Assembly: GCA_000002445.1 (NCBI GenBank)
Contig: CP000070.1
Location: 1,728,001-1,792,000, forward strand
Source of the DNA: Trypanosoma brucei
Taxonomy: Eukaryota
DNA: 64,000 nt
Direction of reading: 5' to 3'
Position numbers: made by a program. Positions 51,301-54,300 of this stretch are shown one piece after another (within the stretch, counting starts at the first letter, position 1; each line of letters opens with the position of its first letter).

Positions 51301-54300
51301 GCGGCGGGAATGCGGCCTGCGTGATCTACACCAAGTACTTCAACGCCGCAAAGGACACGGCAGGGGCAGAAACCATACCGTGGATTTCCAGAATAGCAGC
51401 GGCAGCGAAACTACTGGAACAGGCGGAGGCGCAAGCAGGAGAAGCAAACTCCATGCGGCGCAAGACAGAAACTCTAATTCAAAATGCCAAAGCAGCATAC
51501 AAGTCCAAGCGTTATGATTTCGAAGCAGCGCCGAACATCGGACCTCAAACCGAAACAAAAGACTCACGAACACTCGCAAACAAATGTGAAAAACACCATG
51601 CAAGCCCAGATAACTGCACCAAGGCTGAATGCGACTAGGATACTGAAAATAAAAAATGTAAACCTAAACCAGGATCAGAAAGCACAGCAGCAGGAGCACA
51701 AGATCAAGCGGGAGGAGCAGATACAGGAACTTCAACTGGGTGTGCAAGGCACGGAAATGACAAGACGGCCTGTGAAAATGACAAAGCAGGCGATAAGCAA
51801 AATTGTGCGTGGAGGAAGTGGAAAGATAATGAGGACGAGACTGAAAAAGAAAAATGTTGAAATGGTAGTTTGCTTGTATACAAGAAAATTGCTCTCATTG
51901 CTGCTACATTTATTAGTTTGGTAGCAGTTTATTGTGTTAAAAACTTTTTTCTCAATTTTATCAAAACTTACAAAAATATGCTCTTCTTATAAAAATTTTT
52001 CTATTCTAATCAATTTTTAGACATTTTAAAAGTTTATGATAAAAATGTGAAAATTAGAGAAATTTCGAAAAAGTTGATATAAAAGTAGGCTATGGGTATA
52101 AAGTAGTTGTGTGATATAATTTTTAAAAACAGTGCTATTCTAGTTTGGTCTATTTTGTTTGTTTTTCTGTACATTCATTGGGGTTATACTATTAATGTTT
52201 ATAATGATAATAATAATGATAGGAGAATGTTGTGAGTGTGCATATACAAATATTATAATAAAAGCAGTACTAATAATTATAGTGATAGTAGTAATAATAA
52301 TGATGATAGGAGAGTGTTGTGAGTGTGTATATACTGATATAGTAATGACAATAGTGGTTGTATACTAAAGGGAAAAAACAAAAGCATTTAAAATAATGGA
52401 GAGGACGCAAAGAGTATTGTTGATGAAACGCAGGAGGGTAAAGAAAGAGGGAGAGAGGAAAATAAAATATTCGCAGTCCCAAACACAGAAATAATGATTA
52501 AAAGAATCTTACAAAAAGAGATGAAAGAGGATGCAACAATTACGGAAATACAGAACGTAGTACACATTACAAACAGTGTCGCTTTTTTATCATCACCAAA
52601 AAAGCCAGTAGAATAATAAGTAAGAACGCCAATACTGAATGCAAAGAAAGATGCGGGGTAAAAAAACGGTGTATGGATGGAAATTATACAATGGACGAAA
52701 AGTGTGATACATATTTCGCAAAAACATGCTTATTTACCCCTAAGAAGATGATGATATCTGTATTTTGTGATTTGATGGGCTATCTTAATGCGCAGAGCTG
52801 TTTACCAAGGCGGTTGGCCGACAAGGCACCCAGGGCAGAGTTTCAATTCTGGGAAATAGGCGACAATAAAAAGGCAAGTTAGAATTTTGAGGGGTAATTT
52901 GCGGAAGTTTTATAGAGTATCACCAACTATTTTCACAGCGCAAGCGACAAACAATGCTAATATGGAACGAATAATCTTTACTGCCAGCATAGGGGGAAGT
53001 GAACGAACGCCAGTCAAAAACAGACGTAAACAGACACTACGGGAGGCGTCAAACGACCGAAGGTAACATAAAAGCGCTGCTTGAAGCAACAAACTGCGTG
53101 AAACAGACGAAGTAGCAGTGATAACCACCTAATAATCTGTTGAGACTTTGCAACCGTGTAGAAAGTTGCGTCTAGCATTTCCAAGCCACATTTAACCTTA
53201 CAACGGTTCTTCAAGGCAGAAGAAAAAACGAAGCTAAAACAATGCTCGGAGATAGAAAAACCCAAACAACCCGCCTACTAATTGCAATCCTTGTGCTACT
53301 AACGGCCTTACCACAGTGGGTGGTGCCGGCTGCTCACATGGGGCTGCTTAAAGCAACATGGCAACCACTTTGCGCGTTGACAAAAGAACTTGACGAAGTC
53401 CCAGGAGAAGCGTTACAGGAGGTAATGGCCATACTCAGCAAGGCTTCAGAACTCGAAAAGGAGGCAATGATGCTCAAAATATACTCGGCACTGACAGAAT
53501 CAGAAAGCGAAGCTAAAAAGGCGACAACGGTAGCGGCTCACATGCGGAGATTAGCACACTCCCAAAGGCAATACTTCATGACAATAGATGCACAAAAATT
53601 TCTCGCAGCCAGCAAAGCGAGCGCATATGCAAAGGGACGACTAGACGAGTTCCTTCAAGTGGCCGGTTCGATGAAAGACAGCAGCAACCGCGGGTGTTTA
53701 TTAGCGGGTAGTAACCAAAACGGCCTAAAACTTACTGACGGCGCACTCGACGGCGTCCAGTGCAAAAACAGTGCGAGCCAGGTAGCCGCTACCACCAGAG
53801 CTACCAAGACGATAACAGCAGCCGGCATATCGGGCCCAATCCACGGGCAGGAAAGCAGCAACAGGATCCAGCACAGCGCCAACGAATGCAGGCTATTCGG
53901 CAAAACGCACGCCAACGGTCTCGGGCACACGGCAGCACTAGAAAACCCAAAGCTGGTATGGGCCGGGGGCTACATCACAATCGATACAAGCAGCGGAGAC
54001 GACGGCAAGGTCACACTAACACAACTAACACCAGCAGGGACACAGACGAGACCGGAAGCCAAACCTTGGCAGGACTGCATAGAAGCAGTAGGGGCTATGC
54101 CGACAGCTGGCTCACCAGCGTACACCAATGACACAGCTGTTCTGGCGACATCCGAAAGCGCAGCCGACCTATTCGGCCGCGTACAGAAAAATATAGAGGA
54201 CGGGACACTGAGCAACACAAAGACAGAAATAACGGCAATGTTCGGCGACCAACCAGAGGTTCAAGTAAATAAATTGCTAAGCAACGCAGCGAATTATCAA

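What the first reader, a model, noticed from the sequence alone, without database searches (positions are those of the whole stretch)
51630..51930. VSG4 is full length but interrupted by exactly two in-frame stops
Reading the 50382 frame through TAG (51636-51638) continues into a textbook VSG C-terminal domain. Passing a second stop (TGA, ~51858) gives a GPI-signal-like hydrophobic tail (NGSLLVYKKIALIAATFISLV). There are no frameshifts. This is the kind of lightly damaged VSG that can contribute segments to mosaic VSGs late in infection.
Basis: seen in the sequence. Interest (0 to 1): 0.5.

Follow-up and report, generated by a model that had tools for sequence, protein, structure and literature searches.

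The report
Known trypanosome VSG pseudogene, mosaic donor
This is an ordinary, already catalogued silent surface-coat (VSG) pseudogene on Trypanosoma brucei TREU927 chromosome 7; it is full length but disabled by two premature stops plus a lost natural stop, and pieces of it appear in published expressed mosaic coat genes.

Summary
From ATG 50382, one frame runs 536 codons. It is interrupted only by TAG (51636-51638, codon 419) and TGA (51858-51860, codon 493). The other two frames carry 21 and 29 stops.

The conceptual protein matches a complete B-type VSG N-terminal domain and a complete VSG C-terminal domain, colinear across both stops, with no frameshift.

The natural stop (codon 517, 51930-51932) now reads TAT, so the frame runs on 20 codons to TAA 51990. 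The 3'UTR 16-mer is also degenerate.

The window is T. b. brucei TREU927 chromosome 7, in a chromosome-internal cluster of five VSGs.

- **Old lesions:** TGA493 and the lost stop are shared with T. b. gambiense DAL972 and T. b. equiperdum, and the EATRO1125 ORF ends at the same place.
- **Lineage-specific lesions:** TAG419 is seen only in TREU927 (Tyr elsewhere). DAL972 has its own stop at codon 433, and equiperdum has a 2-bp frameshift.

Two public expressed VSGs (AGQ50184.1, ABN70730.1) are identical to this gene over long segments and different elsewhere. Hall et al. 2013 list Tb927.7.6530 (B-type, C-terminal damage only) as donor of mosaic Set_20.

The parts
48607..48718 (+). Single, slightly degenerate 70-bp repeat about 1.66 kb upstream of the ATG. 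It is the 5' boundary of the VSG cassette.
   Evidence: blastn against the 70-bp repeats at 52164-52365 and 55104-55280. The alignment shows the (TAA/TGA)n run followed by GTGTTGTTAGTGTTTGTATAC.
50382..51635 (+). Open part of the pseudogene, codons 1-418: signal peptide, complete B-type N-terminal domain, and the first 17 residues of the C-terminal domain.
   Evidence: Translation. Pfam VSG_B on residues 10-361, E 1e-55. The expressed cDNA-derived proteins P0002 and P0027 start at the same Met, MPLYAL.
50466..50480 (+). Codons 29-33 (AVRFQPL), a cluster of substitutions in the otherwise conserved xDFQLLC motif. Arg30 replaces Asp and Pro33 replaces Leu.
   Evidence: Five nucleotide differences in 13 bp against DAL972. 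All intact relatives and both expressed VSGs have DFQLL.
51585..51923 (+). C-terminal domain homology (residues 402-514) with eight cysteines in two four-Cys subdomains. It spans both premature stops.
   Evidence: Pfam Trypan_glycop_C 1-104/104, E 6e-19. phmmer match to the MITat 1.13 structure 6z8g, residues 393-513, E 5e-18.
51636..51638 (+). Premature stop 1, TAG at codon 419. It is a single-base change from TAT (Tyr) and is seen only in TREU927.
   Evidence: DAL972 and equiperdum DNA read TAT. EATRO1125 VSG 1125.2540, both expressed VSGs and all intact relatives have Tyr in CDYD.
51858..51860 (+). Premature stop 2, TGA at codon 493. Intact relatives have Arg here (CR[SN]GSFL), one base away (CGA or AGA). 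It is an old lesion shared between subspecies.
   Evidence: No difference from DAL972 or equiperdum at this site. The EATRO1125 ORF ends at ...EKEKC. Arg is present in P0002-P0005 and P0027.
51861..51929 (+). GPI-signal homolog of 23 codons, NGSLLVYKKIALIAATFISLVAV. It has substitutions at usually conserved positions (SFLVNKK reads SLLVYKK).
   Evidence: Alignment to the C-termini of intact relatives P0003-P0005 and P0023.
51930..51932 (+). TAT at the position of the natural stop codon, a stop-loss that forms the third lesion.
   Evidence: Intact relatives end exactly after the aligned residue 516. In a DNA alignment, this TAT lies in the column of the TAG stop of the neighbouring VSG at 40704-42308. 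It is shared with DAL972 and equiperdum.
51933..51992 (+). Read-on of 19 further codons (CVKNFFLNFIKTYKNMLFL) into the 3'UTR, plus the terminal TAA.
52112..52130 (+). Degenerate remnant (TGATATAATTTTTAAAAAC) of the conserved VSG 3'UTR 16-mer TGATATATTTTAACAC.
   Evidence: Read from the sequence. No match to the 16-mer within 3 mismatches downstream of this gene.
52164..52365 (+). Two 70-bp repeats. They mark the start of the next cassette (VSG 53242-54885) and the 3' limit of this one.
   Evidence: Exact TGTTGTGAGTGTG cores at 52228 and 52315, with 0.14 expected by chance. Alignment.

Best explanation
This is a silent, full-length pseudogene of a Trypanosoma brucei variant surface glycoprotein with a B-type N-terminal domain and a two-subdomain C-terminal domain. 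It is the fourth of five VSG cassettes in a chromosome-internal cluster on TREU927 chromosome 7, and is most probably the annotated gene Tb927.7.6530. It cannot make a coat protein itself. Translation would stop at codon 419, before most of the C-terminal domain and before the GPI signal. Even with that stop repaired, the TGA at 493, the lost natural stop and the degenerate 3'UTR element remain. Its N-terminal domain coding sequence is intact, and it works as a template. When a related VSG occupies the active expression site, homologous recombination (segmental gene conversion) copies stretches of this N-terminal domain into it. The damaged 3' end is left behind and replaced by sequence from other donors or the resident gene ('3' donation'). 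Shown here: the anatomy, the lesions, their distribution between strains, and protein-level identity of long segments with two expressed VSGs. Inferred: the gene ID, that the identical segments were copied from this copy rather than from an unassembled near-identical one, and the recombination mechanism, which is taken from the literature.
For: Anatomy: frame and stops; complete VSG_B and Trypan_glycop_C; colinear with intact VSGs of 513-519 aa; 70-bp repeat upstream.

Source: the neighbouring VSG at 53242-54885 translates 100% identically to XP_846274.1 of TREU927, on the 2,205,233-bp chromosome. DAL972, Lister 427, EATRO1125 and equiperdum orthologs differ at 6-52 residues.

The lesions are real and old. 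TGA493 and TAT517 are identical in DAL972 (L001) and equiperdum (L002), and the EATRO1125 ORF ends at Cys492. Each lineage has added its own extra lesion: TAG419 in TREU927, TAA433 in DAL972, and a 2-bp deletion at 50420-50421 in equiperdum.

Donor role: P0002 and P0027 share long identical blocks with this gene, interleaved with blocks that differ. P0002 carries window-specific Ser103 and window-type Tyr98, Thr100 and Ala210, where P0027 has His, Asn, Ala and Glu. Hall et al. 2013 (PMC3708902) Table S1 gives Set_20 as 'mosaic', with donor A Tb927.7.6530, property 'C' (C-terminal-domain pseudogenicity), N-terminal type B, C-terminal type 3, and a second donor unknown. It is the only chromosome 7 donor in that table.

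Mechanism: that paper and Nature 2026 (PMC13233330) show templated, homology-driven mosaic formation from donors anywhere in the genome.
Against: Of the three window-specific markers, the expressed VSGs carry only one. P0002 has Ser103, but both have Ala29/Asp30 and Tyr419. The same non-window blocks (29-33, 245-362, 428-435) recur in both independent expressed sequences. Much of each expressed gene may therefore come from one unassembled relative that is identical to this gene over long stretches, which would leave a smaller contribution from this copy (at least codons 98-210 of P0002).

The comparison is at protein level only. The nucleotide sequences of the clones were not available. I could not look up Tb927.7.6530 coordinates, and no main-text paper names it. 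That AGQ50184.1 belongs to the Hall et al. data set is inferred from its date and content. TAG419 has no independent confirmation (searches found nothing).
Confidence: 0.85

Rival explanations
1. The stops are sequencing or assembly errors and the gene is an intact, directly usable VSG.
For: TAG419 is found only in this assembly. Every other strain and both expressed VSGs have Tyr (TAT), one base away. No independent TREU927 data could be retrieved.
Against: TGA493 and the lost natural stop are identical in three independent assemblies, and the EATRO1125 ORF ends at the same place. The gene is therefore a pseudogene whatever the status of TAG419. Hall et al. classify the putative gene as pseudogenic in the C-terminal domain. 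The chromosome is finished Sanger sequence (general knowledge).
Confidence: 0.03
2. The expressed Set_20-type VSGs derive entirely from an unassembled relative, such as a paralog or the allele on the homologous chromosome 7. This copy has never acted as a donor and is simply a decaying relic.
For: Both expressed proteins share the same non-window blocks and have Tyr419 and Ala29/Asp30. The 343-362 block of the expressed VSGs equals the DAL972 allele of this very locus, so such alleles exist. Hall et al. state that the Set_20 pattern could not be resolved for lack of donor data, and that often only one homolog is represented in the reference.
Against: P0002 and P0027 differ from each other exactly where P0002 takes the window state, including the TREU927-specific Ser103. 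This needs a second template with the window's sequence. Hall et al. assigned Tb927.7.6530 as donor from nucleotide comparisons.
Confidence: 0.1
3. The 418-codon truncated ORF is a functional non-coat gene. It would be a secreted, anchorless VSG-related protein transcribed by Pol II from the chromosome-internal position.
For: The N-terminal domain ORF is open in TREU927 and DAL972. dN/dS against DAL972 is 0.40, or 0.26 outside two clustered patches, below neutrality at p 0.002-0.008. The cluster lies at the end of a housekeeping gene run.
Against: Equiperdum, and by inference EATRO1125, has a 2-bp frameshift in the signal peptide. The truncation points differ between strains (419 versus 433). 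N-terminal domain divergence is about eight times that of the flanks (40 differences in 1200 bp versus 6 in 1382 bp). This points to imported conversion tracts from selected paralogs as the cause of the low dN/dS. The conserved DFQLLC motif is damaged.
Confidence: 0.02

Closest known systems
Tb927.7.6530, VSG pseudogene of T. b. brucei TREU927 (donor 20-A of Hall, Wang & Barry 2013, PMC3708902)
   Same: Chromosome 7 of TREU927, B-type N-terminal domain, and damage confined to the C-terminal-domain coding part. Expressed relatives exist that are mosaics with an unknown second donor. This is most probably the same gene.
   Different: Nothing known. The identity rests on matching properties, because the coordinates of the gene ID could not be looked up.
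Orthologs: VSG 1125.2540 (EATRO1125, APD74029.1), CBH12878.1 (T. b. gambiense DAL972, chr 7 1.82 Mb), and the unannotated copy in T. b. equiperdum CM010678.1
   Same: Syntenic, 97-99% identical, with the same TGA at codon 493 and the same lost natural stop.
   Different: All have Tyr (TAT) at codon 419. DAL972 has its own TAA at codon 433. Equiperdum has a 2-bp deletion in the signal peptide, and the EATRO1125 ORF correspondingly starts at Met36.
Intact B-type VSGs: Lister 427 VSG 383 and VSG 401, and EATRO1125 VSG 1125.182
   Same: Same architecture and length (514-519 aa), 41-42% identity over the full length, and a near-identical second C-terminal subdomain and GPI signal: GCARHG.DKT.CENDK.GDKQNCAWRKGKDN...C R[SN]GSFLVNKK.
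   Different: They have Tyr at 419, Arg at 493, a stop directly after the 23-residue signal, and the intact DFQLLC motif.
Classical pseudogene-derived mosaic VSGs and 3' donation (segmental gene conversion in the expression site)
   Same: A pseudogene with a usable N-terminal domain and a dead 3' end is exactly the class rescued by 3' donation and mosaicism. 43 of 103 N-terminal-domain donors in Hall et al. were pseudogenes.
   Different: This donor sits in a small chromosome-internal cluster rather than a subtelomeric array. Recent work shows donors can be used regardless of location.

Membership tests
T. brucei VSG gene family (B-type) | Signal peptide plus N-terminal domain of type A or B with conserved cysteines | tested here: met
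   Pfam VSG_B on residues 10-361, covering profile 2-349/352, 189.5 bits against a cut-off of 25. Cys35, 208, 222, 224, 235, 260, 305 and 313 are conserved in the alignment.
T. brucei VSG gene family (B-type) | C-terminal domain with one or two four-cysteine subdomains | tested here: met
   Pfam Trypan_glycop_C 1-104/104, 68.8 bits against a cut-off of 21.4. There are eight Cys. It matches the MITat 1.13 structure sequence at E 5e-18.
T. brucei VSG gene family (B-type) | Hydrophobic GPI-addition signal that ends at the stop codon | tested here: not met
   The 23 homologous codons are present at 51861-51929. They are preceded by TGA and followed by TAT instead of a stop, which adds 20 residues.
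T. brucei VSG gene family (B-type) | Uninterrupted reading frame (needed for a functional VSG, as opposed to a pseudogene) | tested here: not met
   TAG at codon 419 and TGA at codon 493. It is a family member by homology but a pseudogene.
T. brucei VSG gene family (B-type) | Cassette context with 70-bp repeat(s) upstream | tested here: met
   One degenerate 70-bp repeat at 48607-48718. Every VSG in the cluster has one or two.
T. brucei VSG gene family (B-type) | Conserved 3'UTR 16-mer TGATATATTTTAACAC | tested here: not met
   No match within 3 mismatches downstream of the gene. Only a remnant with insertions is present at 52112-52130.
Documented mosaic donor Tb927.7.6530 (Hall et al. 2013, Set_20) | Located on TREU927 chromosome 7 | tested here: met
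   The neighbouring VSG is 100% identical to TREU927 XP_846274.1, on the 2,205,233-bp record. The locus is syntenic with DAL972 chromosome 7.
Documented mosaic donor Tb927.7.6530 (Hall et al. 2013, Set_20) | B-type N-terminal domain, with pseudogenic lesions only in the C-terminal-domain coding part | tested here: met
Documented mosaic donor Tb927.7.6530 (Hall et al. 2013, Set_20) | C-terminal domain of type 3 in the VSGdb classification | not tested
   The classification key (Marcello & Barry 2007) was not available. Only the eight-Cys pattern and the (S/N)GSFLVNKK-type signal were seen.
Documented mosaic donor Tb927.7.6530 (Hall et al. 2013, Set_20) | The gene ID maps to these coordinates | not testable with these tools
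   There is no access to TriTrypDB or the GenBank feature table. TREU927 is not indexed in the contig look-up.
Documented mosaic donor Tb927.7.6530 (Hall et al. 2013, Set_20) | Expressed VSGs contain segments identical to it next to segments from another template | tested here: met
   Tested at protein level only. P0002 is identical at 1-28, 34-244 (one change) and 363-427 (except Tyr419). P0027 is also identical at 436-479.

The most novel reading that the evidence does not exclude
The N-terminal-domain coding part of this long-dead gene is not drifting freely. It differs between subspecies about eight times more than its flanks, yet with dN/dS of 0.26-0.40. The same N-terminal-domain-focused divergence is seen in every VSG of this syntenic internal cluster. 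This would fit silent archive copies, pseudogenes included, being continually overwritten in patches from functional relatives, or being selected as donor modules, while their 3' ends are left to decay.
Probability: 0.2. Interest if true: 0.45.

Novelty: already known. Interest (0 to 1): 0.15.

Why it matters
It matters little beyond confirmation. Most of the T. brucei VSG archive consists of pseudogenes like this one. This gene is annotated in the reference genome and has apparently already been used in a published study of mosaic formation.

It is a clean worked example for two reasons. Because it sits in a syntenic, chromosome-internal cluster, its lesions can be ordered in time across subspecies: an old TGA and stop-loss, then independent later hits in each lineage. 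Public expressed sequences also show its N-terminal segments rescued while its broken 3' end is discarded.

Tried and rejected
- **Exact-product look-ups.** Look-ups for window genes and for the truncated ORF found nothing. The TREU927 protein P0031 is itself not indexed, so these negatives say nothing about the source or about TAG419.
- **Full-text searches.** Searches for Tb927.7.6500-6540, 1125.2540, AGQ50184 and ABN70730 found no paper. The gene ID appears only in a supplement.
- **Marcello & Barry 2007.** This paper is the likely source of ABN70730.1 and of the C-terminal-domain type key. It is not held.
- **First dN/dS run.** The run used a wrong coordinate offset, gave nonsense values (1115 differences) and was discarded. 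One search is the corrected run.
- **70-bp repeat search.** The exact-core search missed the degenerate copy upstream of this gene. blastn found it.
- **Stop-codon reassignment or readthrough.** I considered and rejected this. T. brucei uses the standard code (established knowledge), and orthologs carry different, non-equivalent lesions.

Full report
**Observation.** Translating from ATG 50382 in one frame gives 536 codons. It has a TAG at 51636-51638 (codon 419), a TGA at 51858-51860 (codon 493) and a final TAA at 51990-51992. The other two frames of the same stretch contain 21 and 29 stops, so the frame is a decayed coding frame and not chance.

**What it is.**
- The conceptual protein matches the whole Pfam B-type VSG N-terminal domain: residues 10-361, profile 2-349/352, E 1e-55.
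- It also matches the whole VSG C-terminal domain model: residues 402-514, profile 1-104/104, E 6e-19. That match runs straight across both stops.
- The C-terminal part also matches the sequence of the solved MITat 1.13 VSG.
- Intact relatives of 513-519 aa (Lister 427 VSG 383 and 401, EATRO1125 VSG 1125.182; 41-42% identity) align end to end with only small in-frame gaps.
- The DAL972 ortholog shows 48 substitutions and no indel over 50100-52400.
- The gene is therefore full length and has no frameshift.
- The real start is 50382. Both expressed relatives begin MPLYAL, whereas the mechanical ORF and the DAL972 annotation start 52 codons upstream.

**Lesions.**
- At codon 419 all relatives have Tyr (CDYD), and the DNA of two other subspecies reads TAT. 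TAG is therefore one base from the ancestral codon.
- At codon 493 intact relatives have Arg (C-R-[SN]-G-S-F-L), one base from TGA.
Intact relatives end directly after the residue aligned with Val516. The codon at 51930-51932 is TAT, and in a DNA alignment it lies in the column of the TAG stop of the neighbouring VSG. The frame therefore runs on for 20 residues into the 3'UTR.
- Further signs of wear are:
  - Gly480Trp in the conserved AWRKGK motif;
  - SLLVYKK instead of SFLVNKK in the GPI signal;
  - Arg30 and Pro33 in the conserved DFQLLC motif near the N-terminus;
  - no recognisable 3'UTR 16-mer within three mismatches.

**Where it is.**
- The next VSG downstream (53242-54885) translates to a protein 100% identical to XP_846274.1 of T. 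b. brucei TREU927, on the 2,205,233-bp chromosome. Orthologs from DAL972, Lister 427, EATRO1125 and equiperdum differ at 6-52 residues. The window is therefore TREU927 chromosome 7.
- The locus is syntenic with DAL972 chromosome 7 at 1.81-1.84 Mb of 2.22 Mb (98.2% identity) and with T. b. equiperdum (97%).
- It is a chromosome-internal cluster of five plus-strand VSGs: 40704-42308, 43495-45050, 46894-48300, 50382-51992 and 53242-54885.
- Housekeeping genes precede the cluster (Dus, Kae1/TsaD, a DEX1-like protein), and a degenerate ingi-like retroelement follows it.
- Each VSG is preceded by one or two 70-bp repeats. The one for this gene is a single degenerate copy at 48607-48718.

**Are the stops real?**
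- TGA493 and the stop-loss are identical in DAL972 and equiperdum DNA, and the EATRO1125 ORF 1125.2540 ends at Cys492. These two lesions predate the split of the subspecies and cannot be sequencing errors.
- TAG419 is seen only in this assembly, and I found no independent TREU927 data.
- Each lineage has its own extra lesion: TAG419 in TREU927, TAA at codon 433 in DAL972, and a 2-bp deletion at 50420-50421 in equiperdum. The deletion also explains why the EATRO1125 ORF starts at Met36.

**Use as a mosaic donor.**
- The 90% cluster around the best full-length hit contains two expressed-type T. brucei VSGs, AGQ50184.1 (P0002, 513 aa) and ABN70730.1 (P0027, 518 aa), together with the DAL972 ortholog.
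- P0002 is identical to the window protein at 1-28, 34-244 (one change) and 363-427 (except Tyr at 419). It differs at 29-33, at 36 positions in 245-362, and entirely from 428 on.
- P0027 shows the same foreign blocks, plus a foreign patch at 98-103 and at 210. It is identical to the window again at 436-479 before switching to another 3' end.
- Where the two expressed proteins differ from each other, P0002 carries the window state, including Ser103, which is unique to the TREU927 copy. A template with this gene's sequence therefore contributed at least codons 98-210 of P0002.
- Hall, Wang & Barry 2013 (PMC3708902) sequenced expressed VSGs from TREU927 mouse infections. Their Table S1 lists Set_20 as 'mosaic', with donor A Tb927.7.6530, pseudogenic in the C-terminal domain only, N-terminal type B, C-terminal type 3, and a second donor 'Unknown'. 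They state that the Set_20 pattern could not be resolved for lack of donor data.
- That description fits this gene, and it is the only chromosome 7 donor in the table. The ID-to-coordinate link and the attribution of AGQ50184.1 to that study are inferences.

**Mechanism (from the literature).** Segmental gene conversion copies homologous stretches of silent donors into the expressed VSG. 3' donation retains or imports a working C-terminal domain, which rescues donors with damaged 3' ends. 43 of 103 N-terminal-domain donors were pseudogenes. Mosaic formation is driven by homology around a break, and donors can lie anywhere in the genome without needing 70-bp repeats or UTRs (PMC13233330). That suits an internal, UTR-degraded pseudogene like this one.

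**Extra observation.**
- Against DAL972, the N-terminal-domain codons carry 40 differences in 1200 bp. The upstream flank has 6 in 1382 bp, and the C-terminal part plus 3' flank has almost none.
- Two tight clusters stand out: 5 differences in 13 bp at 50467-50479, and 13 in 66 bp at 51401-51466.
- dN/dS is 0.40, or 0.26 outside these patches, with p 0.002-0.008 against neutrality.
- The same N-terminal-domain-focused divergence appears in the other VSGs of the cluster.
- The 343-362 patch of DAL972 equals the state in the TREU927 expressed VSGs.
- The simplest reading is that silent copies are themselves patched by conversion from related genes, which is a known mode of archive evolution. I did not test it further.

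**Verdict.** The feature is an ordinary, already annotated VSG pseudogene that is most probably a published mosaic donor. Interest is low.

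Noticed in passing
window 40200-55200, compared with L001 and L002: Differences between subspecies pile up in the N-terminal-domain coding parts of every VSG in the cluster. Counts reach 29-31 per 300 bp against DAL972 and 89 per 300 bp against equiperdum at 47400-47700, while intergenic flanks show 0-2 per 300 bp. This suggests silent copies are patched by gene conversion.
   Followed up: partly
window 53242-54885: The neighbouring VSG (identical to TREU927 XP_846274.1, annotated 'VSG, atypical') has AAG in the alignment column where another VSG of the cluster has its TAG stop. The Pfam C-terminal domain model ends at residue 531 of 547. It therefore also seems to have lost its natural stop and carries a C-terminal extension.
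   Followed up: partly
window 43495-45050; L001 3381-4954: A further B-type VSG is split into two ORFs (43495-44025 and 44298-45050) in TREU927. It is called as a single 462-aa VSG_B plus C-terminal-domain gene in DAL972, so this looks like a strain-specific frameshift or stop.
   Followed up: no
window 40704-42308: This 534-codon ORF has a clear VSG C-terminal domain, but no Pfam A-type or B-type N-terminal domain hit at E below 0.01.
   Followed up: no
window 55782-61000, minus strand: A degenerate ingi-like non-LTR retroelement has reverse transcriptase, RNase H and C2H2 fingers in separate broken ORFs. It bounds the VSG cluster downstream. The equiperdum locus has an endonuclease-domain ORF in the same place.
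   Followed up: partly
window 23135-35089 versus 40704-54885: The VSG cluster is chromosome-internal, at about 1.82 Mb of a 2.2-Mb chromosome. It follows housekeeping genes on the same strand (dihydrouridine synthase, Kae1/TsaD, a DEX1-like beta-propeller protein), so it sits at the tail of a Pol II gene run rather than in a subtelomere.
   Followed up: partly
window 45237-45400: A long run of TAA-type triplets forms part of the 70-bp-repeat region upstream of the VSG at 46894. About 365 bp after the VSG end at 44910-45274 is duplicated at 48300-48664 (97% identity).
   Followed up: no
L002 around 7060 (equivalent to window 50420-50421): T. b. equiperdum carries a 2-bp deletion in the signal-peptide codons of the ortholog. 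It shares Ala103, Ala290 and Met386 with the EATRO1125 ORF 1125.2540, which starts at Met36. This suggests the same frameshift haplotype is present in EATRO1125.
   Followed up: partly
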